This document shows, in pieces, positions 3,290 to 52,462 of a DNA stretch of 59,932 bases. The notes beneath the pieces are model-generated. The model ran no database searches. It had not been told where the DNA came from and was given only the letters and a program-made list of their open reading frames with translations. This DNA comes from Alphaproteobacteria bacterium (GTDB lineage: Bacteria > Pseudomonadota > Alphaproteobacteria > Micropepsales > Micropepsaceae). Position 1 is the stretch's first letter; every line of letters starts with the position of its first letter. The position numbers and the translations under genes were made by a program. Where the stretch lies: the NCBI GenBank assembly GCA_040382295.1, contig JBEIFU010000001.1, positions 1 through 59,932 on the forward strand. Reading direction: 5' to 3'.

Positions 3290-3774
3290 ACCACCTCCAC
3301 TTCGCAGCCAATACGCTTCAAAATCGCCATCACGCGCGCCATGTCAGCCTGCTTGGCAGACACCAGCAAAACACGATCCGGCAACGGCGCAGGCTTCTCA
3401 ACCCGAACAACCGGCCCAGGATGCTGAATGCTGTCCAGCAAAAACTGAAACTGCTCAACTCCACCCGGCCGAACAGGCGGCGGATTGGGCGCAAGCTCAG
3501 TCGTGCAATCATTCTTGAACTCATACGCCGGCGCCGCATCCGAAGGCGCAACCTCCGGGTTCAAGCGCAGCCACATCTCCGCAGACTTCTCGATCGAGCG
3601 CGACGGAATAATCTTCCCAAACAACCAGTGACGGACAGTGCCACGCATGTCCAACGCCTTGTCCATCCCATCCCTCTGGTCAAACCGCTTCGCCATCGCA
3701 ACCAGCGCAGGGCGGCCCGCCGCCCCAATCCGGTCCCAAACCCCTGCATACTCGCTGTACAAACGACCGGTCAT
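3286..3774 (-). CDS. Hypothetical protein (162 aa)
   Basis: Long ORF with normal composition, coupled to its neighbours. Confidence 0.55.
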   Translation of the reverse strand: MTGRLYSEYAGVWDRIGAAGRPALVAMAKRFDQRDGMDKALDMRGTVRHWLFGKIIPSRSIEKSAEMWLRLNPEVAPSDAAPAYEFKNDCTTELAPNPPPVRPGGVEQFQFLLDSIQHPGPVVRVEKPAPLPDRVLLVSAKQADMARVMAILKRIGCEVEVV

Positions 3775-21751: not shown

Positions 21752-21779
21752 GGCCGGGCATAGCGCCCGGCCTTTCTCA
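21752..21779. terminator. Hairpin terminator at a convergent junction
   Basis: GGCCGGGC-atagc-GCCCGGCC followed by TTTCTCA. It sits between the (+) operon end and the stop of the 4403-aa gene. Confidence 0.55.
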
Positions 21780-24700
21780 TTCCGGCATGATGTCCATCTG
21801 GCGCTCGTAGAGCCGGTCCCGCTGCCCGTTGATGCGATCCACGGCCCGGTCCAGCGCACGCTCGTCGATCATGTTCCGCTCAAACTGCCTCACAAGAGAC
21901 CGCTCCTTGGCGTCCAGCTCACGATTGATGCGGTCAAACTCGATCTGCCAGGAAACAAACCCCGTCTCCACATCCTGCGGCTTGAGCTTCACCCCAAAAG
22001 AGTTGAGCAAAGCGGCGCCGGGATCATAAGGCGCGTTGCTGTTCCACTGGCGAGCGTCACCCATCACGGCCCGCAAAAGCTGCTCCTGATACCAAGAGTT
22101 GGGGATCCAGACCGCCGACGGCATGTAGGATTTCCAGAGGTAATCGGCGCGCGCCGCCATGCGCTCGGAGAACGTGTCCGTCAGCGGGTTGAAAATCTCC
22201 TCGCCGGTGAAGGCCGTCTTGTTCAAGTATAGCTCCATCCCGATCATCAGCGGGCCGCCGACCTGCAGCCATGACGGGATGTCTCCCTGCAGGTCAAACA
22301 CATCTCCCGCCGGGATCCAGCGCCGCACATCAAGGAACACCGGCATTTCGTCCTGCAGCCATGGCATCCGCATCATGCGCGGCAAGCCTATGTCGGTGAA
22401 GGGGACGCCGATCCAAGTCTTGCCCTGCTGGTCTTCGCGCATGCTGTTGCGCTCATCTTCCTCGTCGTCATCGGACGGCGCAACTGCATAGGCCAGCGTG
22501 TTCAGGGCTTGGGTGATGATGATGTACTTGGCGATCTTCCACGGCCGCTCTGCCATGGTCTGGGCGATCTTCGGGATGGCGCGGTAGGTATAGCCGATGA
22601 ACGGCAAGACCGTCGTGCGGGCGACGTTGATCCACGGCGCGCGGATGTCGTAGTTCAGGAACTGGTCCCTGGCCTCGATCGCCGCCTCGTCGATGGTCGC
22701 GCCCTGCTTGCGACGGCGCAGGTACAGCGCCATGCGGAATAACTGATCTTCGAGCTGGTAGGCTCTCAGCATCCCGCCGTCGACGGCCTTCAACGCCCCG
22801 ACGATCTTGTCCATGACAAGGCCGATCTTGCCAAACTCTCCCTCAAGGCCGCCCTTTCCGCCGCGCATCTCGTCAGCGATCTGCTGCAGGAGGGGCTGCA
22901 GGACGTTGTCGCGGATCTCCGATGTCACGAAGTCAGCGCCGAAAGCCCCAGCCTGGGCGGCCTCCTGATAGTCAGCATCGCCCCTTATGTAGGATGCGAC
23001 CCCGGCAAACAGGTCCTCAGTGCGAACGTCCGCCATGTCCATGAACATCCAGTTGGACATCATGTTGTTCATGTGGACAACCGGGTTGCGGGCGGTCTTG
23101 TTCAGCTTCCACTGCGTCAGGATCTTCTGATAGAAAAATGGGCTTTGCAGTTGCCGCAGCTCCTCCATGTCGCGCCAGATATCGGCCCGCACATACATGC
23201 CGGCCAGCGCCCCATAGCGGGCCGCTTGGGACTTGGCGATCTTCGCGTCAGGGACCTTCACCCACTCGAGGTCGGTGTTGATGAAGATGCGGCTCAGGAA
23301 CCCACGGCGCTCGGGGTTCTCGTCAACTTTTGCATCGGCCGGTGGCTTCTTGGTGGCCCACTGCTCATTCTTGGCGATGTCCGCAAAGAACCGGCCCGTG
23401 GCCAGATCGTGGGCCATGAGCTGGTACGTCTTGGCGATCGTGTAGCGGGCGTCAAGGATCTCCCCCATTTTCGCCCGCTCAGCCTTGGTAAAGTCGCGCC
23501 AGAGCGTGACCTTTCCGTTGTTCTCTCCGCGCACCTCGAACGTGCCCCGGTCATCGTAGTTGTCGATCGAGGCCGGGATCTGCTGATCGGCCGGTAGGTA
23601 CACCCGACGCACCATCCTGCCGCTTGGGGATTCCATCCCGGTCAGCGGGTCAATGTTGGACGTAGACCGCACCTCGAGGACTCGGATCATCTCCCCGACT
23701 TGGGGCTTGCCGCGCCGCGCGCCAAGGAACGCCTCGTTGTCCTTGAAAATACGCTCGATCGCGACCTCTTTGAATATGCCGCGTCCCTTGAACTGGTCTC
23801 CCACGATCCTGCGGCGCCGGGATCTGCCAAGAGCCCGCACCATCGCCTCAAGGGATCCCACGTCCTCCTCGCCCTTTGCGTAGACCCGGTGCAGGTACTT
23901 GCCCTTGTTGCGCTCGTAGGATTCCCGTGAGATCAGACCAAGCTCGACCGCCTCAAGCCCCATCTGGTCGATCGCTTTGCGGATCGGCTCGGAAAGGTTC
24001 TCCATCGTCGCGCTTGGAAGCTCCTCGCCAGTCATGATCGCCTGCAGGGTTTTCAGCTCATCAACGCTCAGGTTTGCCTTGGCGATGGCGTCGATGTGCT
24101 CCTTGCCCTCTGCCGTCAGGATGGCCTCGTCAACGCCGCGCCGCCGGTCCCTCTCGACGTATTCCTCTGGCAGTCCGTACCTGTCGACGATACCGGCGCG
24201 CACGCGCTCCACCAGCGGGCTCATGAAGCCCATCTTCTGCTCGACAACCAGATTGCGGATCACCTTCTCGGCCGCCTTGCCATAATTCCAGCGGCCGTAC
24301 TGATCGAGGCCACCGACGGCCATGAACGGGATCCGGAAAGCGGCATCTATGGGCTGCGTCATCACGGTGCGCAGGAACGACTCTTTGCGGTGCTTGACCG
24401 GCGTCTGCATGGTCACCCCGGACGTGACGGGCTGTCCCACCATCGCGCTTGCGACCCGGTTGGCCCCGCGCTGTGCCTTGGCAAAGCGAACCTCGGCCGC
24501 CCGTTCGGAGATCGACATCGAGGGCCCGCCCATCGATTCAAGGATCTGCTGATCGGGGGCCACGTCCTCGGTCATCCATGGCGGGATCTGGCCGCGCTGC
24601 CCTTCCGTGAAGTCCTGGCGGCGCTGAACATTCCGCGCCTCAACCTCGCCAGCCAAGCGAACGTAAACCTGCTCAGGCGTCAGGCCGGTCTTGGCAACCA

Positions 24701-27700
24701 AAGCGGCCGATCGGCCACCCTCAATGTTTCCGCCGGTCTGGAAGCCTTCTATGTTTTGAACGGAGTGCTGCAGCTCATGCAGGATCACATCCCTGATCTC
24801 GTCTGCGGTCAGAGATGGGTTGAGGGTAATCCTTGCGCGATTGAGTGGGGTAGCCTTGTAGAACGCGCCCCGTGTTGGCCCCTTCAATCTTCGATCGAGG
24901 GCAACATCTATCGTTTTAGCCCCAAGAATTGGGAAGGCATCATATAGCTCCGGATGGTCAAGGATGTCCTCGAGCTTTGCCATGTAATCGGTGTTTACCG
25001 CCCACGGGTCAGCTTGGAAGTTTCCTCGCAATTCAAGCATGGCATCCGGCTTGATGGCAGAGCCAATATCGTTGATCTCAAACCGCCACTTCCCATCAGC
25101 GCCCTTGAACCATCCGGTCTTGGCGATGATCTCGTCACGGGTCGCGCCGTTCTTCTCCATCTTCTTCGCGTCTGCGAGCATGATCTTGCGACCACCCTCG
25201 CCCGCCTTATCAAGGTTTCTCGATGCCCTCTCTCCCGCAAACATATACCGAACGCCGCCAGCCGTTTCGGCGGTCATCTGTTGGCCACGCCGCCCCACCG
25301 CCCCAGCGTTGATCTTGGAGAGAACCGATTCCGCGGTGGTGAAGCCCTCGCCGCGCAGCGCCGACCGGAACGCCTCGATCAGCGACATGATGCGCTCGAA
25401 CGCCGACCGGACAAACCCGGTCTGCTTTTGCCCCGCGACCCACCGCGCAAATCCCTCCGCAATGACCTCCTCGAGGATCTGTTCCTCGGTCAGCCCCATC
25501 CCGCCATATTCTCGACGCTGTTCCGCAAGCAGATCTGTCTGCCCCAAGGCCCACCTCTCAAGGGCATCCCACTCAGCCTTGCGGAATAGACCATAGGGAG
25601 ATCCGCTCCAAAGCCGAGATGACCGCAGCGCATGGATGACCTCATGCCGCAGGGTGCCAATGGCCGACGGGTTGACGCCGCTGGTCTCGGTGTCCAGCGC
25701 CACGGTGATCATGCCGCTAAAGAACGCCCCATCAGCCTCTATGGTGGTGCCGTCCCCCAGAACGCCAAACAGCTTCTCGACCACATCCACGTCAATATCG
25801 GGCAGGCCCAGCTTGGAAGCCTCTTTCTTGAGGTTCAGCGCGATCGAGCGGGCCTTGATCTTGTCAAACGGGGTGGCGGGCCGCTCCACCTCCAAACCTC
25901 CGCCCAACTGCTCGCGCTGTGCGCGCTTGGAGAGATTGGTGGCTGTGTCGGTCGGACCTTTTGCTTTGGAGAACCGCGCCCGCTCCTGGCCGTCCCGCGA
26001 CGGGATGTCGGGCAGGGTCTCGCCGGTGATGGCGCGCGCCTCGTTCTTGTCGACGTTGGTCTCGTATTCCGTTCCCAGGTTGTCGGCATAGATCTTCAAG
26101 ACCCGCTCAAGATCGGCCCGGCTCATGTCCTTGCGCCAGATCTTGTCTTGGCGCTTCATGAAGTCGCCCACCAGCGCGATGACAGCGCGGTTTTTCACAT
26201 ACTTGTTGCCGCCCTTCGCGGTCACAATCACCGCAAACTGACCGCTCTGCATGAACGACACGCGCAGGATATTGTCCTCGTCCGTGACGACGCGGCTTCC
26301 CGGGTTTCCCTGCAGGAACTCCGTGACCATGCTGATCTCCGGGAACCTGACCGGCTGATCTGCCATCGCGCGGGCGGCATCAAAATTCGCAGGCAGGAGG
26401 ACACCCTGTTTCAGGTTGCCATCGCTGTCCGTGTAGTAGGTGATCAACCCTCTCTCGAGCTGCGCGAACCCGGCCGGGATGTTGCCGGTGATCATCTGGC
26501 GCGTCTCGCGGCTCTCCGTTTGACCCAGATCAAACTGCCGCATGATCTGGGATTGGGTGAACGCCGGAGACGGGTTCCACCTGTAGTCAGGCATATCACC
26601 CATGAGCCGCGACAGCGGGACGCGGATCTCCTTGGCGGCGTCCGCCACCGCAATCCGAACGGTCATCGCTGATGCGGCCGTCGGGCGCCGGCTGGCCTTG
26701 GTGATGTCGACACCGAGAGCCACAGCCGAATAGGTGGTTGCCTCGTCGGCGGAGACCTGCACCGTGATACTGCCGTGCCGTCCGGGGCGCAGATCGCCAA
26801 GCATCCGCGTGATGTCCATGAGCCGCTGCTGTTGAGCCCCGATGTCCGCAATGGTGCGGTTGATCGCGTCTTGGGCTTTGTCCTTCTGCTTGTCGGTCTC
26901 AGCCTTCTCAAGGCGCTCCTCTTGAGCCGCCAGCCGGTCCCTCAGAACCTGCTCTTGAGCTGGCATCGCATCCCGCAGCGTCTTGGTCTGTTCGGTCACG
27001 AACGCATCCGCGCTCTTGCCATCCAGCGCGCGGGCAACCTCCTCGTTGACCTGCTCGGCCGTGTAAGAGCGGCCAATCTTCTTCACGTCGACCGTCTCGA
27101 TGAAGGCCGCGCGTCCGAACGGGCTGGTTTCATCGCTGGCCGGGACCAGCTCGGTCTGGTTGATCGTCTTGGCGTCCAGCTCGAGCACCTTGGCCTCGAG
27201 CGCGTTCATGCCCATGCGATCGAGGTTGTCGATCATGTCCTTATAGGAGGTCTCGATCTCGTCGTAGATCTCATCCACCAGATCAGGCGGGAACGACACC
27301 AAGCGCCCGGTGAACTTCGAGGCAATATCGGTGTTATTGTCGCCCGGCCAGATGTCGACCATGGCCGAATAGACCGGGTTCTCCCGCAGGAAGTTGGCAA
27401 CGACGATGTCGCCGTACTGGTTGATGAAGTCGGTCACGTTGTCGAGCGAGACCGCGCCCTTCTTGGATGCGGTAGTATTTGCATTGAGCGAAGCCATCTT
27501 GCGCATGAGCACAGCCGCCGGTCGCTTCTCCACAGACAGATCCGAGATGCCGATGGTAAAACCTGGGAGCTGTGTCTGCCCCGTGCGATGGATCCGGCCC
27601 AGCATCTGCATGAAAAGGTCGATGTTCGGTTCGGCCTGCAGGATGATCATATGGCGCGGCTTGCCATCGTTCCCCGGCTTGTTGGTCGCATGCATGCTGA

Positions 27701-30700
27701 ACCCGGTCGAGCCGGAGCGGTTGATGACCAGCGCATCCAGAGCCCCGGAGTTATAATCATTCATCACGCGCTTCTTGCCAGCCCCGGAGGACTCGCGCTT
27801 GGTGATAATCCCGTCCTCGATGATCATGGATCGCCCGGTGATCTCACCAACATTGATCCCGGCCGCGCGCAGGCCATCCATGATCGCATCAATCGGTGAC
27901 CCCGCCAGACCGCCCAGATCCGCATTCAGGACGAACTGCCGAGCTTCCTCGAATGCGTCAAGCGCCTGCTGGCCGCCGTGCTCAATGATGTCGTCATCGG
28001 TGAGGTAGATGTATTCCTTGGTGTCCTTGTCGATCTTCCTGGTCACTCGCCGCAACCGCCGAAGGTATCGTTCCAGAATGACGTTGAACGGGAGATCGAA
28101 CTTCTCTCCGACCCGCGCACCGACGGCCGCCATGTGCTCGGTCATGATTGACGCATTGGTGTTGGACAGGGCGATGATCGGCTTCTTCCCGTCACGGAAC
28201 AGAGCGATGGCCTCCTCGATGGCCGATGGAACCTTGATGGCCAGGAGGAACTGCGCGGCGACGTTGTGCATGACGCTCGCGAAGCCCTGTGATTTCAGTC
28301 CAGATGAGCCGGTTGACAGGTCATCGGCCATGGCCTCCGCTTCCTGTTTCATACCGTCGATGAACGACTTGCGAACATCCTCCATGACATCAATGTCAAG
28401 ATTCAGGATTGCGCGCAGCACCCCAGCCCCGCGTTCAGCCAAGGCCCTATCCGTGATGTAGATCTCGGGATCCATCTTGATCCCGTCATATGAACGCTCG
28501 CGCCGCGCATACTGGCCCGAGTCCACAAGCATGTTGGAGATGACTTGCTGCAGCGGGACCCCGCCCTTCACAATCATGTCGGCCAGATCGTCAATGCTTC
28601 CGACGCTCAGCGCCAGATCGGTCGCGCTGTAGAGGGACATGACATAGGGGTTCTTGGCATAGGTCGCGCTCGAGTAGACGACGCCTTGGGCTCCTTGCAG
28701 AAGCTCCCGGATGAAAGCCGAGCGCGGAACCTTGTCGTCGTCGGCCCGATCGTTCGGCCGCCCGCCGCCTGCCTCGTGGCTCTCATCCAGAACGAACATG
28801 GCGTTGCCAGCGACAGCCCGCATGGCATTCATGCGCTCCGTGTCGCGGCCCTTGACCTGCTGCATCTGGCTATAGGTCGTGAACAGCATCTTCTGGCCAT
28901 CAGGAAGGCGGCCCGTGGCCTGCATTGTGGTCATCGCCTTGCCCAGAGGCTTGGCCGTCATGGAATAGAGCTTGTCTTCCGGCTCAGACGAGAGCGGGAC
29001 AGCGTCCTTGCCGCGCAGATCCGGGTTAGTGACCATGACGCTCTCATGGATCTTCGGCATGCCGATGTCGCGCATGTCGCGGATCATGTCCGAATAGAGC
29101 GCCGAGTCCTTGGTGATGAAAACCGGGGTCAGGCCCTTGAGCATCGCATAGCGCAGCATCGCTGCCACGAACCGGCCTTTGCCCACGCCGGTCTGGTCCC
29201 CGATGATGAAACCTTTCCCCTTGGAGACGTTGTCGATCGCCAGCGCCAAGGCGTCCACCTGTTCTGCGGAGAAGTAGCCACCCACGGCCTGATCGGCGGA
29301 CCCAAGAAGCTCATCGAGCGTATATCCGAGCTCCTTTGCCACAAAGGCGTCAATGTCGCCCACGCGCGCCTCGAGCGCATCAAGGGCGCGGGACATGGCG
29401 GCCTGCATATTGCGCGGGACAAGGGTGCCAACGGCGAATGTCGCCTTGGAGCGCGGCTCGTATTGAACCTGAAAGACTGTTTCGACCTCGAGGTTTTGCC
29501 GGTCTAGGTCAGGCCGTGGTACACCCGACCCAGGAACTCGATCAGCCTCTCCGGTTCCGGGTTCGGTCCCACCTCCAGATCCATCCTCTTGTCCGGTTTG
29601 ATCTGGTCGGGCTGGATCGGCCACATCTGGCTGAACACTCCCGCTCGTTCCTGCAGGGTCTCGGACTCCTCCGACATCAGCTCCCCCACCTGTTCCAGCC
29701 ACCGGGCTGCGGACAGGCCGTCCACCCGCTCCACCGTCTGGGCGAGAAGCTGTGCCGCCGTCGCCGGCCCCGCCTCCCGGACCATCCGATTGATCTTGGC
29801 CGCGAGGGCCAGCCGGTAGTTTTCCAGCGTTAGCGGTCTGACCGGGCGCGGTATCTCCACCGTCCCGATCCCCTGCATCGACCCTTCTGGGGTCCAGCGT
29901 ATTTTTTCCATCAAGTCGCTCTCCCAACTCTTGCCACGTCGTATAGATAGGGGGCGGAACCTTCGTTGGATAGGGTTTTGTTGCGTTTTTTCCCTTCCCC
30001 GCGATAACGATCACATCCACGGGCCAGCCAGCCCCCTGCCGCTCATACAGACGGCCGTCGACCGTGAAGTGCTCAGAGACCCAATACCCGTCATAGAGCT
30101 GCTTGTAGAAGCGCCGGGTCATCTCGCCCTGGTATGCCTTCTTACGGGCGTCGATGTCGGTTTCCTTCTTGCCTCCGATGATCAGCACGGCCATGCCGTT
30201 TTCAGGCAAGCCCTCGAGTCCCTTCATGACGATCGCATGGTCAATCTCGGTGGTGGTGCCGTCCCCCATGGTGAAGGTCTGCACGATTCCGGTGTCGCTC
30301 CGCACCTTGCCAAACGGCGGGTTGGTCAAGAGCAGGCTGTAGGATCCCGGCTCATGCGTCATCGCATCGCCCTCGGTGATCTTCGCCTTGTCGCCCAGGA
30401 CGCGGCGCAAGCCCTCGACCCGCTCCGCCTGCATCTCGTTGGCGATGACCTTGGCCGGGTTGGCTTCCATCAGAAGCATCCCGTTCCCGGCCGTGGGCTC
30501 ATATGTGGTCTTGTTGGGGCCAGCCTTGCCCAGCCGCGATGCCAGATAGGCCAGCGGCGCCGGGGTCGAATAAGCCTGCATGAGCATGCTGGTCGATGTG
30601 CGCTGGGCGAGTTTCGGCTGGGACTCGTACAGATCCATCATATCGCTGTAGATCTCGGCCTCAGACTGGCCAGCCTCGTTGCCCTCGGCCACCAGCTCGC

Positions 30701-33700
30701 GCGCCCGCAGCACCACGGCAACCTCGATCGCCTCCTCGAGATCCTTCGCCATGTCGGGGCTGTAGGCGGTCCCGGTCAGGTCCTTCACAAGGGCCCGCGC
30801 CTCCACGATCGTCTTGAACCCAACCCCCTTGCGAAACTCAGCCAAGAAACCATCGGTGATCGCCGCCCGCCACGCTTCCGGCGTCATCGGTTCGGGCTCA
30901 GGCTCCGGTTCGGGATCCGGCTCAGGCTGTGCCTCGGCCGCCTCCTTCTCCTCGCGGATCAGGCGGGCCATCTCCTGCATGACGGCGCGGTCATCGTCCA
31001 TGTCGGCAATGGACTCGCCCTGAACCTCCATCTCGCCACGGATCGAGTTGTAGGAGTCGCGCAGCATCCGAGAAAGCTCTGCGAGCGGACGCTTCAACTT
31101 GTCCGCAATGGAGATCGCATATTCGCGGAACCGGCGAAGGCCGCCCTCGACGTATAGCTCTCCCAAGCGAACCGTCAGCATGAAGATCTTTGGGTCGAGG
31201 CCAGCATTGAGTTGCGTCCGCAGCGCCTCATCAATCTGCGCGGCCAAGTCATCAGCCTCCGCCTGCTTCTCCGGGCTCAGGAGTGGTTGCTTGACGGCAG
31301 GCTTGGCGGCCGGGCGTGGCGCTGCCGGGCGCTGGGCTGGCGCAGGAGCGGGCTTCTCCGCCTTGGGTGGTGTCGGTGCGGGCGCGGGCGCCTCGGGCGG
31401 CTGTGGGGCCGGCGCGGGCGGCGTTACGGGCTCGGTGCCGGTTTCTTCTGGCGCAGTTTCAGGTCCAGCTTGCGGGCGGCCGCCATCATTTCCCGGTCGT
31501 TGTGCCGCTTGCCCACCTTGAGCATTGCCCGGGCGGCCGCCCCCTGCGCCGCCGCCGAAGAGACTTGGGGCTGCGGCTTCTTCGTCTGCGGTGATTTCAT
31601 TCACGATCTCCTGTGGTGTCCGGATTGGTTTTGGCTCGACCCCAGGCAGGTTGCCTTGGTCAATGCGTTCCTTCATGGCCTCGTCGACATATGCCTCGAG
31701 GAACTCCTGCATCCGACCCTTGCTGACCATGCGCGTGCCGGCCGGGTTGAAAAAGGCGTCCTGAACCAGCTCCGCGATCGGGTCAAGCGGAGTGGCGAAG
31801 GCGTCGATCTGCGCGCGGGCCCCTTTCAGATCCTCGTCACGGGTCCGGAAGTCAGCAATGTTCTGCGCCGCGCTGATGATCTGCGGCGTGATGTCCATTG
31901 AAGGATCCACCTCGCCTGCCTCGATTGCTGCCTTGAGCTGGACGACGCGACCAGCGGCTTCCGTCATGGCGCCGGTGATTGACTTGATGTCGTCGTTCAG
32001 GGACTCCGACATGCGCGACAAGAGCTTTTCGTCACCATAAGCCCGGTAAAACAGCGCAGTCTGGAAGCGCCGCTGGCCCTCGACAGTCAAGCCGCCCTCT
32101 TTGGTGACCAGCGCACCTTGCGCGGTCTGGGGCAGTTTCCCGATGAAGGCGCGGATCATGTCGCGGTTGCTCGTGCTGGACATGCCGCCGCCACGGTAAA
32201 GGTCGATCACGCTGCGGTCGATCAGGCTCGCGTCGGACCGCGCGTTCTCGGATGCGGACATGGCCAAGGTTGCCGGCGTGTTGGACGCGGTGGTGAAGTT
32301 GCTCGCAACGTCGGTGACCCGGCGACGGATGATGACCGGGTTCTTCATCCCAGCCGCTTCCGGATACCGCTCCTGCACATAGGCCCGGTATTCCTCAGCC
32401 GTGCCGCGCTCGTAGGCCCGGCGCAAGCCGATGACCCGGCCATTGCCGGATTCAATCACGCGGCCGTCCATGCCGGTGATCGGGGATCCACGGTCGGTTT
32501 CGGGAGACTGGTCGAGGCGGCGCGGGTTGGGCTGGTTGGCGATTCTCTCGATCTGGGCTTGAGACGCGGCGCGGTCGCGGTCGCGCGGCTGCAGCTCCGG
32601 CGGATAGCCTTCCTGATCGGACGTGAGAAGGCTGTCTGCCTCGACCACCATCGTCTCAACGTCGACGGGGTCATTGTCAGGCGTGTCGATCGTGGTGACG
32701 CGATCCGGGTTGACCGGGCGGCTCTCTTGCGCTGGTGCTGTTACCGGGGCCTCGGCCGGGGCAGTCGTGGTGGTCGTTCCTGTGGTCGGCGCTTCTGGCG
32801 CACTTGGCGTCTCCGCTGCAGGGGTTTCAGGGGCAGGCCCACCGGCCGGGCCATAGAGGACATCGAGATCAACGGCGCCGGTCGGGACGTTGACGGGGGC
32901 GGGCGCTTCAACTGTCTGCGCAGCCGTGCCCAGCCCTGACTTGGGCGGCAGGGGTTGCCCGGACTCGATCGCATCGAGCGCCGCCAAGCCGGTCTCCATC
33001 ACATCGTTCGGGACTACAGGATTGGCCTGTTCCTCTGGCGTCAGGCGGGGGCCGCCTGCAGGGCCGCCGCCAAGGCGATCCTGATTGCGACGATCCCTCT
33101 CGCCAGCATAGACCGCGTTGCCCCATTCGATCGGCGCAGTTATGGCTTCTGCCAGCGCCTCCATGATGACCTCGCGCGGGCTGAACTCTTGCCCCGTCAC
33201 AACCCTCGCCGCTGCTTCGCCGCCGCCTCCGGTCAGGGCCTGAACGAACGTGTTGAAAACAGCATCGCCAAGCTCTGACTTGAACAGCGCACGGGCGGCG
33301 ACCCCTTGCCCCAAAGCCTCCGCCGCTGAAATCACGAGGCTTCTCAAGAGCCCTCTGCGATTTGCATCAGCAATCAATTCCGGGTTTTCGAGTGCAGCCC
33401 TCGCATCCGCAGGGGTTTCGAGGCTGACGTTGTTCTCCTGCAGCATCTCGTTGAACGAGGACCCGTATTCCTGGGCCATTGATCCGGCTGTAAGCGCGGC
33501 CACCCCTGCCGCCGGACTTCTTGTGGCGACTGTGACTGCGGTCGTTGCGGCCAGAACCGGAAGGGATTCTGCCGCGACTTCCGACATGAAGATGGTGAAA
33601 TCAAGTGGGTTGGCCGCGATCGTGCTGAGCGTAGCACCCCAAGTGTCGTCATCCTCCGCGAACAGGCGCTGCAACCTCTGGCCTGCAGGGGAGAACGGAA

Positions 33701-34988
33701 TGTCTGACGCGCGGTCGATCAGAGCCTGATGTTGAACCGCCCGTTCCTCGAGCCATTGACGGTATTCTGGATCGGCCTCCGCCCCTCTGGCGTAAACTAT
33801 GCGGGTATCGAAGTCTTGAAGTACGGTTTCAACGCTCGATGCCGGGAAGCCCTGCTCGTAGAGGTATATGATCATCTCTTGCGGATCAGTGAATGACCTG
33901 CCCTCTGGCGGCGATCCGGTAATGCCCTGATAGATGTCTGCAAGAATCCCCTCGGGGCCGATGGCTGCATCGTTGAACGATCTTACGCCCAATGAAAACT
34001 GCAGTGCCGGGAGTGTCGAGCGGGCGCGCAGAATACCGCGCGTCCAAGCCCGGCCTAGCGCCGTTCCCTCCGGGTTGTCGGGATTGTCCGGAACCAACTG
34101 CTCGGCCGTTTGGCTGATTGCGCCAGCCCGGGACGGCGGCAAGAGCGCGGCGCCAAGGCCCTCGGATACAGGCTGCAGCGGCCGTCCCTCGGTCTGGCCC
34201 AGCGCCTCGTTTCGCGCCTCAAGGCTGCGGTCGACCACCTCGGGGCGCGGCTGGGTGACGTTCCGCAGGCCCTCACCGACGATCGGGAACGGCATGGCGG
34301 ACATGACGGGCAGCATGTCAGGCCCGCTATAGGCGGCCGTCCCAAGGCCGGTGGCTGGGGCTGGCTGTGGCGCTGGTGCTGCCGTGGGGCCCGGGGATCC
34401 TGCTGGTCCGACCGCGCGCGGAAACTGCGCTGCCTGCTGGCGGATGTCGGCCTCTGGCGGTCGCATGGATCCCGGGCCGGTCAAGGCCGCACCCTCGGAC
34501 AGCTTGCTTTGCAGATCCGCGATCTCCGCCTCGAGCTGGGCCGCCTGCCCCTGCATGATCTCAAGACTGGATGGCGAGACCCCGGGCCGCCCCATCTGGG
34601 CGCGCAGGTCGTTGAGCGTCCGAACCCGCTGCTCGATCATGGCTTGCGCGGCGCGGGCGTTGCGATCGCCCATCTGGACGCCAAGCCCCATCGGGGCCGG
34701 GCTGTCCTGCGGCATCATCGGTGTCGCGTCACCCCCTCGAGTCGACGGGCGCGTGACGAGGCCGTTCACGCCAAACGGAGACTGCGTGGAATCGGCCGGG
34801 ATCACCGGGTCTGGAATCTGCGTGCTTCTGATCGCCGGGCTGGGCGTCTCTTGCGGCAGGGCCGGGGGCGTGCGCGTCGGCTCTGACCGGTTCGACGGGC
34901 TGCCGTACACTTCATCAAGGGAGAAGGTCTTTGGTTGCGCGGATGTCGTCCCGTAAACGTCATCCAGAGAGAATATCCGCTCAGCCAT
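21777..34988 (-). CDS. Giant polyvalent protein (4403 aa): ParB-like + N6-methyltransferase + strawberry-notch-like SF2 helicase + two HExxH metallopeptidase-like domains + a long C-terminal region
   Basis: Single uninterrupted ORF. Motifs are listed in the domain features below. GGAG lies 7 nt upstream of the ATG and there is a 3-nt gap to the preceding gene. Last gene of the virion operon. Confidence 0.9.
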   Translation of the reverse strand: MAERIFSLDDVYGTTSAQPKTFSLDEVYGSPSNRSEPTRTPPALPQETPSPAIRSTQIPDPVIPADSTQSPFGVNGLVTRPSTRGGDATPMMPQDSPAPMGLGVQMGDRNARAAQAMIEQRVRTLNDLRAQMGRPGVSPSSLEIMQGQAAQLEAEIADLQSKLSEGAALTGPGSMRPPEADIRQQAAQFPRAVGPAGSPGPTAAPAPQPAPATGLGTAAYSGPDMLPVMSAMPFPIVGEGLRNVTQPRPEVVDRSLEARNEALGQTEGRPLQPVSEGLGAALLPPSRAGAISQTAEQLVPDNPDNPEGTALGRAWTRGILRARSTLPALQFSLGVRSFNDAAIGPEGILADIYQGITGSPPEGRSFTDPQEMIIYLYEQGFPASSVETVLQDFDTRIVYARGAEADPEYRQWLEERAVQHQALIDRASDIPFSPAGQRLQRLFAEDDDTWGATLSTIAANPLDFTIFMSEVAAESLPVLAATTAVTVATRSPAAGVAALTAGSMAQEYGSSFNEMLQENNVSLETPADARAALENPELIADANRRGLLRSLVISAAEALGQGVAARALFKSELGDAVFNTFVQALTGGGGEAAARVVTGQEFSPREVIMEALAEAITAPIEWGNAVYAGERDRRNQDRLGGGPAGGPRLTPEEQANPVVPNDVMETGLAALDAIESGQPLPPKSGLGTAAQTVEAPAPVNVPTGAVDLDVLYGPAGGPAPETPAAETPSAPEAPTTGTTTTTAPAEAPVTAPAQESRPVNPDRVTTIDTPDNDPVDVETMVVEADSLLTSDQEGYPPELQPRDRDRAASQAQIERIANQPNPRRLDQSPETDRGSPITGMDGRVIESGNGRVIGLRRAYERGTAEEYRAYVQERYPEAAGMKNPVIIRRRVTDVASNFTTASNTPATLAMSASENARSDASLIDRSVIDLYRGGGMSSTSNRDMIRAFIGKLPQTAQGALVTKEGGLTVEGQRRFQTALFYRAYGDEKLLSRMSESLNDDIKSITGAMTEAAGRVVQLKAAIEAGEVDPSMDITPQIISAAQNIADFRTRDEDLKGARAQIDAFATPLDPIAELVQDAFFNPAGTRMVSKGRMQEFLEAYVDEAMKERIDQGNLPGVEPKPIRTPQEIVNEITADEEAAAPSLFGGGAGGGRPGNAQGGQAAQRPGNDGGRPQAGPETAPEETGTEPVTPPAPAPQPPEAPAPAPTPPKAEKPAPAPAQRPAAPRPAAKPAVKQPLLSPEKQAEADDLAAQIDEALRTQLNAGLDPKIFMLTVRLGELYVEGGLRRFREYAISIADKLKRPLAELSRMLRDSYNSIRGEMEVQGESIADMDDDRAVMQEMARLIREEKEAAEAQPEPDPEPEPEPEPMTPEAWRAAITDGFLAEFRKGVGFKTIVEARALVKDLTGTAYSPDMAKDLEEAIEVAVVLRARELVAEGNEAGQSEAEIYSDMMDLYESQPKLAQRTSTSMLMQAYSTPAPLAYLASRLGKAGPNKTTYEPTAGNGMLLMEANPAKVIANEMQAERVEGLRRVLGDKAKITEGDAMTHEPGSYSLLLTNPPFGKVRSDTGIVQTFTMGDGTTTEIDHAIVMKGLEGLPENGMAVLIIGGKKETDIDARKKAYQGEMTRRFYKQLYDGYWVSEHFTVDGRLYERQGAGWPVDVIVIAGKGKNATKPYPTKVPPPIYTTWQELGERLDGKNTLDPRRVDAGDRDGGDTAPGQTANAGKLPAGPRGQDQSDGPGGGAGDGGTASRPDGGAGGRPVRSPVAGTGGGADVGGVRDPAGTSGSVQPDVADPARPDQTGQEDGSGGGTEPGTGEADRVPGSGVPRPDLDRQNLEVETVFQVQYEPRSKATFAVGTLVPRNMQAAMSRALDALEARVGDIDAFVAKELGYTLDELLGSADQAVGGYFSAEQVDALALAIDNVSKGKGFIIGDQTGVGKGRFVAAMLRYAMLKGLTPVFITKDSALYSDMIRDMRDIGMPKIHESVMVTNPDLRGKDAVPLSSEPEDKLYSMTAKPLGKAMTTMQATGRLPDGQKMLFTTYSQMQQVKGRDTERMNAMRAVAGNAMFVLDESHEAGGGRPNDRADDDKVPRSAFIRELLQGAQGVVYSSATYAKNPYVMSLYSATDLALSVGSIDDLADMIVKGGVPLQQVISNMLVDSGQYARRERSYDGIKMDPEIYITDRALAERGAGVLRAILNLDIDVMEDVRKSFIDGMKQEAEAMADDLSTGSSGLKSQGFASVMHNVAAQFLLAIKVPSAIEEAIALFRDGKKPIIALSNTNASIMTEHMAAVGARVGEKFDLPFNVILERYLRRLRRVTRKIDKDTKEYIYLTDDDIIEHGGQQALDAFEEARQFVLNADLGGLAGSPIDAIMDGLRAAGINVGEITGRSMIIEDGIITKRESSGAGKKRVMNDYNSGALDALVINRSGSTGFSMHATNKPGNDGKPRHMIILQAEPNIDLFMQMLGRIHRTGQTQLPGFTIGISDLSVEKRPAAVLMRKMASLNANTTASKKGAVSLDNVTDFINQYGDIVVANFLRENPVYSAMVDIWPGDNNTDIASKFTGRLVSFPPDLVDEIYDEIETSYKDMIDNLDRMGMNALEAKVLELDAKTINQTELVPASDETSPFGRAAFIETVDVKKIGRSYTAEQVNEEVARALDGKSADAFVTEQTKTLRDAMPAQEQVLRDRLAAQEERLEKAETDKQKDKAQDAINRTIADIGAQQQRLMDITRMLGDLRPGRHGSITVQVSADEATTYSAVALGVDITKASRRPTAASAMTVRIAVADAAKEIRVPLSRLMGDMPDYRWNPSPAFTQSQIMRQFDLGQTESRETRQMITGNIPAGFAQLERGLITYYTDSDGNLKQGVLLPANFDAARAMADQPVRFPEISMVTEFLQGNPGSRVVTDEDNILRVSFMQSGQFAVIVTAKGGNKYVKNRAVIALVGDFMKRQDKIWRKDMSRADLERVLKIYADNLGTEYETNVDKNEARAITGETLPDIPSRDGQERARFSKAKGPTDTATNLSKRAQREQLGGGLEVERPATPFDKIKARSIALNLKKEASKLGLPDIDVDVVEKLFGVLGDGTTIEADGAFFSGMITVALDTETSGVNPSAIGTLRHEVIHALRSSRLWSGSPYGLFRKAEWDALERWALGQTDLLAEQRREYGGMGLTEEQILEEVIAEGFARWVAGQKQTGFVRSAFERIMSLIEAFRSALRGEGFTTAESVLSKINAGAVGRRGQQMTAETAGGVRYMFAGERASRNLDKAGEGGRKIMLADAKKMEKNGATRDEIIAKTGWFKGADGKWRFEINDIGSAIKPDAMLELRGNFQADPWAVNTDYMAKLEDILDHPELYDAFPILGAKTIDVALDRRLKGPTRGAFYKATPLNRARITLNPSLTADEIRDVILHELQHSVQNIEGFQTGGNIEGGRSAALVAKTGLTPEQVYVRLAGEVEARNVQRRQDFTEGQRGQIPPWMTEDVAPDQQILESMGGPSMSISERAAEVRFAKAQRGANRVASAMVGQPVTSGVTMQTPVKHRKESFLRTVMTQPIDAAFRIPFMAVGGLDQYGRWNYGKAAEKVIRNLVVEQKMGFMSPLVERVRAGIVDRYGLPEEYVERDRRRGVDEAILTAEGKEHIDAIAKANLSVDELKTLQAIMTGEELPSATMENLSEPIRKAIDQMGLEAVELGLISRESYERNKGKYLHRVYAKGEEDVGSLEAMVRALGRSRRRRIVGDQFKGRGIFKEVAIERIFKDNEAFLGARRGKPQVGEMIRVLEVRSTSNIDPLTGMESPSGRMVRRVYLPADQQIPASIDNYDDRGTFEVRGENNGKVTLWRDFTKAERAKMGEILDARYTIAKTYQLMAHDLATGRFFADIAKNEQWATKKPPADAKVDENPERRGFLSRIFINTDLEWVKVPDAKIAKSQAARYGALAGMYVRADIWRDMEELRQLQSPFFYQKILTQWKLNKTARNPVVHMNNMMSNWMFMDMADVRTEDLFAGVASYIRGDADYQEAAQAGAFGADFVTSEIRDNVLQPLLQQIADEMRGGKGGLEGEFGKIGLVMDKIVGALKAVDGGMLRAYQLEDQLFRMALYLRRRKQGATIDEAAIEARDQFLNYDIRAPWINVARTTVLPFIGYTYRAIPKIAQTMAERPWKIAKYIIITQALNTLAYAVAPSDDDEEDERNSMREDQQGKTWIGVPFTDIGLPRMMRMPWLQDEMPVFLDVRRWIPAGDVFDLQGDIPSWLQVGGPLMIGMELYLNKTAFTGEEIFNPLTDTFSERMAARADYLWKSYMPSAVWIPNSWYQEQLLRAVMGDARQWNSNAPYDPGAALLNSFGVKLKPQDVETGFVSWQIEFDRINRELDAKERSLVRQFERNMIDERALDRAVDRINGQRDRLYERQMDIMPE
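24549..25136 (-). other. Domain: second HExxH module, about aa 3285-3480
   Basis: 'TGWFKGADGKWRFEINDIG' followed by 'VILHELQHSVQNIEGFQTGG' (HELQH = 24765..24779) and 'GEVEARNVQRR'. Confidence 0.5.
25269..25871 (-). other. Domain: zincin-like metallopeptidase 1, about aa 3040-3240
   Basis: 'GTLRHEVIHALRSS' (HEVIH = 25632..25646). Confidence 0.5.
27309..29462 (-). other. Domain: SF2 helicase, strawberry-notch-like, about aa 1843-2560
   Basis: Walker A 'GDQTGVGKGR' (aa 1931-1940), motif II 'FVLDESHE' (aa 2065-2072), motif VI 'LGRIHRTGQ' (aa 2463-2471). Confidence 0.8.
29504..29911 (-). CDS. Embedded +1-frame ORF (135 aa from the ATG) inside the methylase-helicase linker
   Basis: 'MEKIRWTPEGSMQGIGTVEIPRPVRPLTLENYRLALAAKINRMVREAG...'. 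GGGAGAG lies 9 nt upstream of the ATG. The GC3>GC1>GC2 pattern belongs to this frame, not to the megaprotein frame. Confidence 0.4.
   Translation of the reverse strand: MEKIRWTPEGSMQGIGTVEIPRPVRPLTLENYRLALAAKINRMVREAGPATAAQLLAQTVERVDGLSAARWLEQVGELMSEESETLQERAGVFSQMWPIQPDQIKPDKRMDLEVGPNPEPERLIEFLGRVYHGLT
29949..30671 (-). other. Domain: N6-adenine DNA methyltransferase, about aa 1440-1680
   Basis: Motif I 'YEPTAGNGMLL' (aa 1496) and motif IV 'LLLTNPPFGK' (NPPF = 30312..30323). Confidence 0.8.
32304..32666 (-). other. Domain: ParB/Srx-like (DdrB-ParB type), about aa 775-895
   Basis: 'PPELQPRDRDRAASQAQIERIANQPNPRRL...PITGMDGRVIESGNGRVIGLRRAYERG'. Confidence 0.55.
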
Positions 34989-44776: not shown

Positions 44777-45106
44777 TTAAGGCGTCCCGCCCATTCCGGC
44801 TCTTATTGTTGCAACAAGAGCCCCGATTGCAATCACGAAGCCAGCTACCCTTACCACCATTCCGGAGATTATGCCTCCACTCTCGTAGGCCACGGTGATG
44901 CGCCCTACTCTGTCGAGCAAAGACTTCTCCTGACCTGCTTGGGGCTCCATGAGAGCGCGGTAAAGGTTGTCGAGCTTTTGAGACATTTCCTGCATTGAAT
45001 CGACGATATCCGCGTGTTCCTTCTTCAGGTCAGCGATGTGCGCCGCTTGGTTCTGGATGCGATTATGCAGATCAGCCACACTCAATCTTGCGTTCTCAAC
45101 CATCAT
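44777..45106 (-). CDS. Membrane protein with a coiled coil and a C-terminal TM (possible lysis accessory)
   Basis: 'GIISGMVVRVAGFVIAIGALVATI'. Adjacent to the endolysin. Confidence 0.4.
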   Translation of the reverse strand: MMVENARLSVADLHNRIQNQAAHIADLKKEHADIVDSMQEMSQKLDNLYRALMEPQAGQEKSLLDRVGRITVAYESGGIISGMVVRVAGFVIAIGALVATIRAGMGGTP

Positions 45107-46272: not shown

Positions 46273-46280
46273 GTCAGGGC

Positions 46281-52246: not shown

Positions 52247-52462
52247 TCAGGCGATCGGTATTCCGGCGCCTGGAATCTGCTGCAGCGTAGCCTTTTCTTG
52301 AATTTCAGCCTCAAGAAGGCGAATTTCCCTGATCTGGCCTCGTAGCGTTGATGTCTGAGCTACATCGTGATCGGTCTCCAAAGCAAGATGTAGTGTGGTG
52401 ATCCTGTCCGCCACATAGCGCAAAAGAAGCATCTTAGCTACAGAATCCAGCTTCAAACTCAC
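52247..52462 (-). CDS. Hypothetical protein (71 aa)
   Basis: ATGA coupling to the portal stop. Confidence 0.45.
   Translation of the reverse strand: MSLKLDSVAKMLLLRYVADRITTLHLALETDHDVAQTSTLRGQIREIRLLEAEIQEKATLQQIPGAGIPIA

What the first reader, a model, noticed from the sequence alone, without database searches (positions are those of the whole stretch)
29504..29914. A protein-like +1-frame ORF is embedded in the methylase-helicase linker, and the codon-position GC signature belongs to the embedded frame
Seen in sequence: residues ~1692-1830 of the megaprotein form a Gly/Asp/Pro/Arg low-complexity stretch ('GDRDGGDTAPGQ...GGGAGDGG...').
In its own frame this stretch uses GGA/GGT/GAT codons, and my manual tally gives roughly 45% G/C at third positions. 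The rest of the genome, including another low-complexity linker of the same gene at ~31270-31570, prefers GGC/GAC/GCC, about 75-80% G/C at third positions in the genes I tallied.
The +1 frame over the same nucleotides is open for 136 codons. It has about 85% G/C at third positions with GC3>GC1>GC2, the normal coding pattern for this genome.
It has an ATG (29911) with GGGAGAG 9 nt upstream and translates to a balanced, helix-rich sequence: 'MEKIRWTPEGSMQGIGTVEIPRPVRPLTLENYRLALAAKINRMVREAGPATAAQLLAQTVERVDGLSAARWLEQVGELMSEESETLQERAGVF...'. None of the other same-strand shadow ORFs inside the giant gene look like this; they are Arg/Pro/Gly junk.
The megaprotein frame takes its first codon position from the G/C-rich third position of the embedded frame, so it would stay stop-free by chance.
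Inference: there are three options.
- An overprinted gene nested in a tolerant disordered linker.
- An ancestral small gene between separate methylase and helicase genes, now read through in a different frame to fuse them.
- Recoding. An A6 run (GGAAAAAAT, 29901..29909) sits exactly at the 5' boundary and could allow a +1 slip, giving a truncated methylase-only product that ends at the TAG at 29504.
Basis: seen in the sequence. Interest (0 to 1): 0.72.

Follow-up and report, generated by a model that had tools for sequence, protein, structure and literature searches.

The report
Hidden gene inside phage giant gene
A real, conserved 135-codon gene for a small folded protein of an undescribed family is written in a second reading frame inside the "linker" of a 4,403-residue phage anti-restriction protein; the same hidden gene occurs in at least 160 related phage, plasmid and genome sequences, and was unannotated in the five cyanobacterial plasmid records checked (Gloeobacter pGMOR1 does annotate it, as a hypothetical protein).

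Summary
X runs from ATG 29911 to TAG 29504 on the minus strand. It lies wholly inside the linker between the DNA methylase and the strawberry-notch helicase of a 4,403-aa phage polyvalent protein.

- **Spread:** 160 of 170 assessable relatives carry a homologous +1 ORF at the same place (phage contigs, plasmids, genomes; G+C 38-71%).
- **Selection on X:** changes silent in X are accepted about three times as often as changes that alter X (0.363 vs 0.114 per site, p=3e-65, 16 of 16 independent pairs). The host-frame amino acids evolve neutrally.
- **Host frame kept open:** 663 stops are expected inside X across 131 loci, and none is seen.
- **Own start signals:** the ATG sits at a fixed position and a Shine-Dalgarno core lies 7-10 nt upstream in 80% of loci.
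- **Folded protein:** AlphaFold2 gives pLDDT 94.5. There is no match in Pfam, NCBIfam, PHROGs, PADLOC, PDB or BFVD.
- **Free-standing relatives:** non-overlapped genes encode the same domain (39% identity, E=3e-23).

Frameshifting at the A6 run is rejected, because only 1 of 115 loci has such a run. X's function is unknown; I infer a partner of the methylase-helicase pair.

The parts
21777..34988 (-). Host gene: a 4403-aa polyvalent protein of a ~60-kb phage. It combines a ddrB-ParB domain, a DNA methylase, a strawberry-notch SF2 helicase, LPD23 and more.
   Evidence: ORF list. Pfam: ddrB-ParB at residues 771-890, AAA_34 at 1923-2173, Helicase_C_4 at 2378-2533, LPD23 at 3249-3307. The phage context comes from a major head protein, a head-tail adaptor (PHROG connector category), a tail fibre and an endolysin nearby.
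29916..30323 (-). C-terminal half of the methylase domain, from NPPFG to W-Q-E-L-G-E-R (residues 1556-1691). This is the anchor used to collect relatives.
   Evidence: Alignments A3 and A7. It retrieved 240 related loci.
29919..29925 (-). Shine-Dalgarno-like GGGAGAG for X, 7 nt upstream of the ATG. It lies within host codons G-E-R.
   Evidence: Sequence. A core SD is present at -16..-5 in 92 of 115 unique relatives, against 9.8% of random windows, with spacing of 7-10 nt. Synonymous codon choice is biased towards the SD in low-G+C loci, p=2e-4.
29504..29911 (-). Gene X: 135 codons plus TAG, in the +1 frame of the host gene. It encodes a small acidic alpha/beta protein of an undescribed family.
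   Evidence: G+C signature. Homologous +1 ORF in 160 of 170 loci. Purifying selection. 78 protein clusters among 1.84 billion representatives. AF2 pLDDT 94.5. Free-standing homolog P0060 at E=3e-23.
29504..29909 (-). Host-frame linker, residues about 1694-1829 (G/D/P/R-rich). It is the same DNA as X read one base earlier. Its sequence is neutral but it is kept free of stops.
   Evidence: Non-synonymous-in-X changes occur at the same rate whether silent in the host frame (0.114) or not (0.131). No cross-locus similarity in this frame, with z>5 in 1% of pairs. 663 stops expected and 0 seen.
29902..29907 (-). A6 run inside X codons 2-4. It is not a conserved recoding site.
   Evidence: Absent in L001. 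Only 1 of 115 loci has such a run.
27390..29498 (-). Strawberry-notch helicase module. It starts at R-Q-N-L-E-V-E...Q-V-Q-Y-E-P-R-S, directly after the X stop.
   Evidence: Pfam AAA_34 and Helicase_C_4. Alignment A3. The X stop lies 7-29 codons (10th to 75th percentile, median 15) before the Y-x-P-x-S motif in relatives.

Best explanation
**What it is.** X (29504-29911, minus strand) is a real protein-coding gene nested out of frame (+1) inside the giant polyvalent-protein gene.

**How it is read.**
- Both proteins are read from the same DNA and, presumably, from the same mRNA.
- Ribosomes translating the host frame pass through. They turn this DNA into a Gly/Asp/Pro/Arg-rich spacer whose residues do not matter. 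The spacer must only stay free of stop codons so that the methylase remains fused to the helicase.
- Other ribosomes start at X's own Shine-Dalgarno site and ATG, which are built into the last codons of the methylase domain. They make a 135-residue acidic alpha/beta protein.

**What is shown.** X is conserved in place and in frame across a whole clade of methylase-helicase proteins of phages, plasmids and chromosomal elements. X is under purifying selection. The host frame is neutral in sequence but selected to stay open. The start signals are conserved at the nucleotide level. X is predicted to fold, and the X domain also exists in ordinary genes.

**What is inferred.**
- Internal initiation is the route of expression.
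- X works as a dedicated partner (regulator, chaperone or third subunit) of the DarB-like methylase-helicase anti-restriction pair. I put this at about 0.35.
- The arrangement arose when a once separate methylase-X-helicase gene row was fused by read-through across X. I put this at about 0.5.
For: - **Position and frame.** In 170 loci with methylase and helicase in one open frame, the +1 frame is open over at least 80% of the linker in 134, against 1 for the +2 frame. 160 of the 170 ORFs fall in one sequence family. These loci span G+C 0.38-0.71, and 34 are below 0.50, where long chance ORFs are rare. For example, P=0.003 in Picosynechococcus pAQ6.
- **Selection.** Over 16 independent pairs the per-site rates were:
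  - silent in X, non-silent in host: 0.363
  - non-silent in X, silent in host: 0.114
  - non-silent in both: 0.131
  - silent in both: 0.373
  Fisher p=2.6e-65, and 16 of 16 pairs agree. The window vs L001 pair gives 0.36 vs 0.19, p=0.013.
- **Wobble position.** In window vs L001, differences by host codon position are 11%/2%/38% in the methylase flank and 28.5%/18.5%/16.9% in the overlap.
- **Which frame carries the similarity.** For the same nucleotides, similarity between loci is seen only in the X frame. z>5 occurs in 20% of pairs, against 1% for each other frame (p=4e-16).
- **Host frame kept open.** 663 stops are expected and none is seen. The median P(open) per locus is 0.009, and 0.025 for the window.
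- **Start signals.** The ATG lies 0-1 codons from a fixed anchor in most loci. An SD core is present in 80% of loci against a 9.8% background. Silent positions are biased to form AAGGAG.
- **Protein family.** 78 clusters of mostly 120-175 aa match full length. Six residues are nearly invariant: W6, P8, Y32, P98, L123, L127.
- **Fold.** AF2 gives pLDDT 94.5 and pTM 0.88 with 66 sequences.
- **Free-standing genes.** The non-overlapped genes P0060 and P0105 carry the domain.
Against: - There is no direct evidence of expression. No proteomics, ribosome profiling or transcript data could be consulted.
- In this G+C-rich window alone, the +1 frame being open is not significant (P=0.80), and the window vs L001 selection test is only modest (p=0.013).
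- The 170 'fused' loci were selected partly on the host frame being open. A few loci show frame switches (L078, L024, L069, L023/L118), which may be errors, decay or real variants.
- Pairwise profile comparison between distant X subfamilies is not significant on thin profiles (E=0.09-0.4). Family unity rests on intermediate sequences and on the 66-sequence alignment.
- The SD motif also encodes conserved host residues (L-K/G-E), so part of its conservation could come from the host protein.
- Nothing found here says what X does. The partner-of-the-dyad idea rests only on fixed co-location, plus one free-standing homolog lying next to a type I restriction HsdR gene.
Confidence: 0.9

Rival explanations
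1. Programmed frameshifting. Ribosomes translating the methylase slip into the +1 frame near the A6 run and make a methylase-X fusion that ends at TAG 29504. X is then not an independent protein.
For: - The window has GGAAAAAAT at the 5' boundary.
- One relative, L078, has the methylase frame running straight into the X frame and ending at the X stop.
- P0058 has X joined in frame to downstream host-frame sequence.
- So fused versions are at least viable as assembled sequences.
Against: - The A run is missing in the closest relative and in 114 of 115 unique loci. An in-phase slippery heptamer occurs in only 2 of 115.
- A +1-frame stop lies 4 codons or fewer before the ATG in half of the loci, and directly before it in over 10%.
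- The conserved SD at the optimal 7-10 nt spacing, and an ATG fixed at or within one codon of the same position in most loci, point to initiation.
- No Rfam frameshift element was found.
- A -1 slip on A_AAA_AAT would enter the other frame and stop after 26 codons.
Confidence: 0.03
2. Chance shadow ORF. In a 61% G+C genome a Gly/Asp/Pro/Arg-rich linker leaves the +1 frame open by accident, and the 'protein-like' look is a coincidence.
For: Given the host peptide and the gene's codon usage, the +1 frame would be open in 80% of simulations for this window. Long shadow ORFs are common in the giant gene, with 22 of at least 80 codons.
Against: - The same ORF is kept in loci with 38-50% G+C, where the chance is 0.003.
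- The substitution pattern follows X's codons.
- Similarity between loci exists only in the X frame.
- There is a six-residue conserved signature.
- The fold prediction is confident.
- Non-overlapped homologs exist.
Confidence: 0.01
3. Three separate genes rather than a nested one. Methylase, X and helicase are translated as separate cistrons, and the host frame across X is open but is not a meaningful fusion.
For: - PGAP annotates Gloeobacter pGMOR1 this way: X as WP_230844304.1, and the helicase starting at an ATG that overlaps the X stop.
- JGI does the same for L010 and L255.
- A host-frame ATG lies 5-8 codons after the X stop in 18 of 115 loci.
Against: - There is no stop at the end of the methylase, so ribosomes must read on.
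- Given X's protein, 663 host-frame stops are expected inside X across 131 loci and none is seen. P(open) is below 3e-4 for pAQ6 and 0.025 for the window.
- The window has no ATG, GTG or TTG in the host frame between the X stop and the conserved helicase N-terminus.
- Relatives without X (Xanthomonas, Acinetobacter) are also fused.
Confidence: 0.04
4. Compensated frameshift or assembly artefact. The true protein reads the X frame as an in-frame domain, and two indels in this sequence displaced the frame.
For: Some relatives (P0009, P0012, P0017) do have an in-frame helical domain before the helicase.
Against: - That in-frame domain is unrelated to X (hhalign E=0.5-0.7).
- Independent assemblies from many samples and finished plasmids all keep the same two-frame layout, and all indels between window and L001 are multiples of 3.
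- X has its own start and stop.
Confidence: 0.01

Closest known systems
comS nested out of frame in srfAB of Bacillus subtilis
   Same: A small independent protein is encoded in a different reading frame wholly inside a very large multidomain gene, so the two are co-transcribed (PMC12915044; the rest from my own knowledge).
   Different: - comS is 46 codons, is confined to Bacillus, and lies inside a catalytic domain.
- X is 90-175 codons and is spread over several phyla and over phages and plasmids.
- X occupies exactly the interdomain linker, and the host frame there is a neutral spacer.
Rz1 nested in the +1 frame of Rz (phage lambda spanins) and the overprinted genes of small viruses
   Same: A same-strand +1 nested gene in a phage, where both products are made from one stretch of DNA. 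The overprinting framework is reviewed in PMC8227390. The Rz/Rz1 comparison is from my own knowledge.
   Different: - In Rz/Rz1 both frames encode functional sequence and the two proteins are known partners.
- Here one frame is only a tether.
- X is not lineage-restricted or disordered, as de novo overprinted proteins usually are. It is the well-folded, conserved member of the pair.
DarB-type methylase-helicase dyad of polyvalent proteins (Iyer et al. 2017, PMC5512222)
   Same: The host gene is a polyvalent protein with an adenine-methylase motif (NPPFG) fused to an SF2 helicase. This is the module thought to protect incoming DNA from type I restriction. The window's protein also has a ddrB-ParB domain and LPD23.
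   Different: - That paper's text contains none of the words overlapping, frameshift or linker.
- The helicase here is the strawberry-notch type, not P1 DarB's own helicase.
- Fused relatives from Xanthomonas and Acinetobacter have a short acidic linker and no X.
Long overlapping genes reported in bacteria, such as the antisense ORFs in Pseudomonas aeruginosa (PMC8850804)
   Same: Long alternative-frame ORFs inside annotated genes, argued from purifying selection.
   Different: Those are antisense, evolutionarily young and species-restricted. X is same-strand, found across phyla, and has free-standing homologs and a confident fold.

Membership tests
Nested same-strand overlapping gene | One ORF lies wholly inside another on the same strand in a different frame | tested here: met
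   29504-29914 (-) lies inside 21777-34988 (-), offset +1.
Nested same-strand overlapping gene | The inner frame is under purifying selection of its own | tested here: met
   Rates are 0.363 for changes silent in X and 0.114 for changes that alter X; p=2.6e-65, 16 of 16 pairs. Similarity between loci is seen only in the X frame.
Nested same-strand overlapping gene | The outer frame is also maintained | tested here: met
   The host frame is kept open: 663 stops expected and 0 seen. However, its residues are neutral (0.114 vs 0.131, and 0.373 vs 0.363).
Nested same-strand overlapping gene | The inner gene has its own translation start signals | tested here: met
   The ATG is at a fixed position. 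An SD core is present in 92 of 115 loci against a 9.8% background, with 7-10 nt spacing. Silent sites are biased towards the SD.
Nested same-strand overlapping gene | The inner protein is detected experimentally | not testable with these tools
   No proteomic or ribosome-profiling data were available.
Programmed ribosomal frameshift | A conserved slippery sequence at the frame junction | tested here: not met
   An A6 run occurs in 1 of 115 loci and an in-phase heptamer in 2 of 115. It is absent in L001.
Programmed ribosomal frameshift | The shifted frame is open upstream, so the ribosome can enter it | tested here: not met
   The median distance from the last +1-frame stop to the X ATG is 4 codons, and it is 0 in over 10% of loci.
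Programmed ribosomal frameshift | A downstream stimulatory RNA structure | tested here: inconclusive
   No Rfam element was found in 29000-30500. No dedicated covariation analysis was done.
Polyvalent protein with DarB-like methylase-helicase dyad (host gene) | An adenine methylase fused N-terminal to an SF2 helicase in one polypeptide of a phage or conjugative element | tested here: met
   The NPPFG motif and the methylase C-terminus are homologous to proteins with PF02384 or PF01170 hits. AAA_34 and Helicase_C_4 are present. Phage structural genes lie nearby.
Any described protein family for X (Pfam, NCBIfam, PHROGs, PADLOC, PDB, BFVD) | A significant sequence or fold match | tested here: not met
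   No consistent hit was found for 66 members in any of the four HMM libraries. The profile found nothing in PDB sequences. Foldseek's best results were E=4.4 (PDB) and 0.93 (BFVD), with TM below 0.3.

The most novel reading that the evidence does not exclude
X is an ancient, near-universal third component of one clade of DarB-like methylase-helicase anti-restriction modules, and it has a fold not seen in PDB or BFVD. On this reading, the long 'low-complexity linker' typical of this clade of polyvalent proteins is not a linker that evolved as such. It is the by-product of reading through a once independent gene in the wrong frame in order to fuse its two neighbours. That would be gene fusion by overprinting, with the overprinted frame reduced to a stop-free tether.
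Probability: 0.45. Interest if true: 0.88.

Novelty: new variant of a known kind. Interest (0 to 1): 0.8.

Why it matters
- **A strong case of dual coding.** Long same-strand overlapping genes in prokaryotes and their large DNA phages are rare and mostly disputed. This one is supported by about 160 independent loci across phyla, clean dual-frame selection statistics, conserved start signals, a confident fold and free-standing homologs. It could serve as a reference case for methods that search for dual coding.
- **An annotation blind spot.** Gene callers suppress X because a giant ORF covers it. In the five cyanobacterial plasmids checked, including the model strain PCC 7002, only the host gene is annotated.
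- **A new view of the linker.** The 'disordered low-complexity linker' is re-read as the shadow of another gene. This matters for domain annotation and for studies of disordered regions.
- **A missing player in anti-restriction.** A new protein family is tied to the injected methylase-helicase module of phages and plasmids.

Tried and rejected
- **tblastn of the window's X** against the phage and plasmid collections found nothing. X diverges too fast. P0031 later found 5 plasmids.
- **blastn of 28000-31500** gave only short helicase matches in plasmids and none in phages.
- **The search for related loci with the X alignment A2** found no confirmed relatives in three collections. Switching to the conserved methylase C-terminus (A7) worked.
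- **Word-indexed protein search with X** returned only 1 hit with the single sequence and 4 with the alignment. The exhaustive HMM search returned 78 clusters.
- **The in-frame helical domain of P0009, P0012 and P0017** was tested as a possible homolog of X, which would have meant a displaced frame. It was rejected (hhalign E=0.5-0.7).
- **hhalign between thin X sub-profiles** was not significant. It was superseded by the 169-sequence network and the 66-sequence alignment.
- **AF2 with 5 sequences** gave pLDDT 45.8. It was superseded by the 66-sequence run.
- **DNA-mimic idea.** X is acidic (median pI 4.7, acidic fraction 15%), but not to the degree I recall for Ocr or ArdA, and there is no fold match. 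This is left open.
- **HsdS-like specificity subunit idea.** There is no fold or sequence match to anything in PDB. I dropped it.
- **An unfused ancestral arrangement** (methylase stop, then X, then helicase start) was looked for and not found. P0040/L255 is just a truncated contig.
Full report
**1. The observation**

The window carries a 13.2-kb ORF on the minus strand (21777-34988, 4403 aa). A 136-codon ORF lies in its +1 frame at 29504-29914, with ATG at 29911 and TAG at 29506-29504.

Over this stretch the G+C content by codon position is:
- 0.84/0.67/0.43 in the host frame
- 0.68/0.43/0.84 in the embedded frame
- 0.65/0.46/0.77 for the whole gene

A sliding-window scan shows this is the longest run in the gene where host-frame GC3 stays at or below 0.50. 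Of 22 same-strand shadow stretches of at least 80 codons in the gene, this is the only one with a coding-like profile and a balanced composition.

One detail is off. The other low-complexity stretch (31270-31570) has GC3 of 0.64, not 75-80%.

**2. Context**

The host protein has these Pfam domains:
- a ddrB-like ParB domain
- a strawberry-notch helicase (AAA_34 plus Helicase_C_4)
- LPD23

Upstream of the linker it has an adenine-methylase region with the NPPFG motif. This makes it a 'polyvalent protein' with the methylase-helicase dyad whose archetype is phage P1 DarB (PMC5512222). The neighbouring genes encode a major head protein, a head-tail adaptor (PHROG connector category), a tail fibre and an endolysin-like protein. 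The window is therefore a phage genome of about 60 kb.

**3. First relatives**

A protein search with the embedded peptide, called X from here on, found one hit. It is P0001, 68% identical, on a 913-bp metagenome contig, L001. Aligned to the window (79% nucleotide identity), L001 keeps both frames open and keeps the X ATG and stop in place. All indels are multiples of three. It lacks the A6 run (GGAACAAAGGAT).

Differences by host codon position show that the wobble position moves to X's third position:

| Region | Position 1 | Position 2 | Position 3 |
|---|---|---|---|
| Methylase flank | 11% | 2% | 38% |
| Overlap | 28.5% | 18.5% | 16.9% |

**4. The phenomenon is general**

Relatives of the host protein at about 40% identity show the same three features:
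- a G/D/E/R/P-rich linker
- the same anomalous G+C pattern (about 0.8/0.66/0.45)
- a +1 ORF of 90-115 codons starting at an ATG a few codons after a +1-frame stop

Annotated plasmids show it too.
- **Picosynechococcus sp. PCC 7002 pAQ6** (44% G+C) has a 168-codon +1 ORF that RefSeq does not annotate.
- **Gloeobacter morelensis pGMOR1** has it annotated as a hypothetical protein.
- **Fused methylase-helicase genes of Xanthomonas and Acinetobacter plasmids** have a shorter acidic linker and no +1 ORF.

Using the conserved methylase C-terminus as bait, I collected 240 more loci from genomes, metagenomes and viral contigs. The scan of these gave the following.
- In 170 loci the methylase and helicase motifs lie in one open frame. 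The +1 frame is open over at least 80% of the linker in 134 of them, and the +2 frame in 1.
- Longer linkers have X plus an extra in-frame domain.
- 160 of the 170 +1 ORFs join a single family (156 of the 169 searched were linked at E<1e-5).
- Hosts, by record title, include Cyanobacteria, Alpha-, Beta- and Deltaproteobacteria, Planctomycetes, Verrucomicrobia, a Heliobacteriaceae MAG and candidate-phyla bacteria.
- 52 loci are IMG/VR viral contigs.

**5. Which frame is selected?**

Each difference was classed by its effect in both frames and divided by the number of possible sites. Over 16 independent pairs the rates were:

| Effect in X | Effect in host frame | Rate per site |
|---|---|---|
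| silent | non-silent | 0.363 |
| non-silent | silent | 0.114 |
| non-silent | non-silent | 0.131 |
| silent | silent | 0.373 |

Fisher p=2.6e-65, and all 16 pairs agree. The rate depends only on the effect in X. X is under purifying selection (ratio about 0.3), and the host-frame residues are neutral. The window vs L001 pair alone gives 0.36 vs 0.19 (p=0.013).

For 260 random pairs of loci I also scored similarity of the very same nucleotides in each frame. The shuffle z-score exceeded 5 in 20% of pairs in the X frame, and in 1% in each of the other two frames (p=4e-16).

**6. Is the host frame open by chance?**

It is not. I held each X protein fixed and redrew codons from the host gene's own usage. 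Under that model 663 host-frame stops are expected inside X across 131 loci, and none is present. The median P(open) per locus is 0.009. It is 0.021-0.025 for the window and below 3e-4 for pAQ6.

The reverse test gives a different picture. The +1 frame being open given the host peptide is not significant in G+C-rich loci (0.80 for the window) but is significant in low-G+C ones (0.003).

A few loci show frame switches (L078, L024, L069, L023/L118). I take these to be errors or decaying copies, but this is not shown.

**7. Start signals**

- The X ATG lies 0-1 codons from a fixed point at the end of the methylase domain in most loci. The distance from the X stop to the helicase motif varies from 7 to about 150 codons (10th to 90th percentile).
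- A core SD (GGAG, GAGG or AGGA) lies at -16..-5 in 92 of 115 unique loci, against 9.8% of random windows. Spacing is mostly 7-10 nt, and the consensus is close to AAGGAG.
- In low-G+C loci, the Lys/Glu codons under the SD end in G in 24 of 32 cases, against 13.4 expected (p=2e-4). The motif is therefore selected at the nucleotide level and not only as host residues.
- In the window the SD is GGGAGAG (29925-29919), 7 nt before the ATG.
- Only 1 of 115 loci has a homopolymer of 6 or more near the start, and only 2 have an in-phase slippery heptamer. No Rfam element was found. Recoding is rejected.

**8. The protein**

- **Family.** An exhaustive profile search of 1.84 billion representative proteins found 78 clusters. 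Nearly all are 120-175 aa and match over their full length. Most of those looked up were called on short or truncated contigs, where the giant ORF is cut. The 66-sequence alignment has near-invariant W6, P8, Y32, P98, L123 and L127.
- **Fold.** AlphaFold2 on this alignment gives pLDDT 94.5 and pTM 0.88. The model has a beta-hairpin followed by six helices.
- **No known match.** There is no consistent match in Pfam, PHROGs, NCBIfam or PADLOC, none in PDB sequences, and none by fold in PDB or BFVD.
- **Charge.** X proteins are acidic, with median pI 4.7.
- **Free-standing genes.** Two clusters, P0060 (297 aa) and P0105 (282 aa), carry the X domain at the C-terminus of ordinary, non-overlapped genes. 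These lie next to a divergent Xre-type regulator and a YAcAr gene. The window's X is 39% identical to P0060 (E=3e-23). In one of these contexts the next gene is a type I restriction HsdR.

**9. Interpretation**

*Shown:* X is a real, selected, folded protein-coding gene nested in the +1 frame. The host frame over it is a sequence-neutral tether that is kept free of stops.

*Inferred:*
- Expression is by internal initiation on the host mRNA.
- X has a functional tie to the methylase-helicase dyad. The grounds are that X occurs in nearly every member of this clade, always at the same junction, in phages and plasmids alike.
- The origin was read-through fusion of a former methylase-X-helicase gene row. 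Two points favour this. The SD lies inside the last methylase codons and the ATG at the domain end, which is the usual layout of coupled cistrons. The X domain also exists on its own elsewhere.

The codon-usage signature does not settle which frame is older, because a neutral host frame lets X's usage dominate either way.

**10. Novelty**

Nested out-of-frame genes are known. Examples are comS in srfAB (PMC12915044), lambda Rz1 in Rz (my own knowledge) and viral overprinting (PMC8227390). The kind is therefore not new. What is new:
- the family itself
- its breadth
- its exact coincidence with an interdomain linker whose own reading is neutral
- the fact that the founding description of these proteins says nothing of it, and two further searches of the held library found no description

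Noticed in passing
L078 (Synechococcales MAG), about 50 codons after the methylase motif; also L024, L069 and L023/L118: In L078 the methylase reading frame runs directly into the X frame and ends at the X stop, leaving the helicase in another frame. L024 switches frame in mid-linker. These could be assembly indels, decaying copies or natural methylase-X fusion variants.
   Followed up: partly
P0058 (249 aa, JGI contig): X is joined in frame to the acidic 'DDxFG...LDEAVAGLTALF' region. In other loci that region lies in the host frame downstream of the linker, so this looks like the opposite kind of frame switch at the X stop.
   Followed up: no
L006, L007, L010, L061 and other cyanobacterial loci, 5-8 host codons after the X stop: A host-frame ATG occurs just after the X stop in 18 of 115 unique loci. 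PGAP and JGI annotate it as the helicase start. It could allow a helicase-only product by re-initiation after X. The window has no such start codon.
   Followed up: partly
L252/L253 (gene 6001-6894 in L252) and L254 (5548-6396): Free-standing 280-297-aa proteins carry the X domain at the C-terminus and an unknown N-terminal domain. They sit next to a divergent Xre-type HTH gene and a YAcAr gene. In L252 the convergent neighbour is a type I restriction HsdR.
   Followed up: partly
L028, L037, L099, L100, L192, L246 and P0012/P0017: Long-linker variants place an extra in-frame acidic motif (DLDALF..VLDEEFG) and a helical domain (FDEETYAKAKPFF...) between the X region and the helicase. X covers only the first, low-complexity part of the linker.
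   Followed up: no
window 31270-31660 (-): A second low-complexity stretch of the giant protein (Gly-rich, then Pro/Ala-rich) has host-frame G+C of 0.83-0.86/0.66-0.74/0.62-0.64. GC3 is below the gene mean of 0.77, but no same-strand ORF of at least 80 codons is embedded there.
   Followed up: yes
window 34992-59925 and 1-21547: The window is a phage genome. It has a major head protein (50209-51207 -), a head-tail adaptor (PHROG connector category) protein (52459-54732 -), a tail fibre (45103-46434 -), an endolysin-like protein directly upstream of the giant gene (34992-36404 -), and a second DNA methyltransferase-like ORF (11369-12538 +). No cultured phage in the INPHARED set resembles it.
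   Followed up: partly
L006 = NC_010480.1 (pAQ6) 98512-103931: In PCC 7002 pAQ6 a separate 'N-6 DNA methylase' CDS, a hypothetical gene and a RelE/ParE toxin gene lie immediately upstream of the methylase-X-helicase gene.
   Followed up: no
L255 (JGI contig, 21.5 kb): Here the helicase downstream of X is fused to DUF3991-Toprim domains and lies next to a relaxase gene. This is a conjugative-element version of the same module.
   Followed up: no
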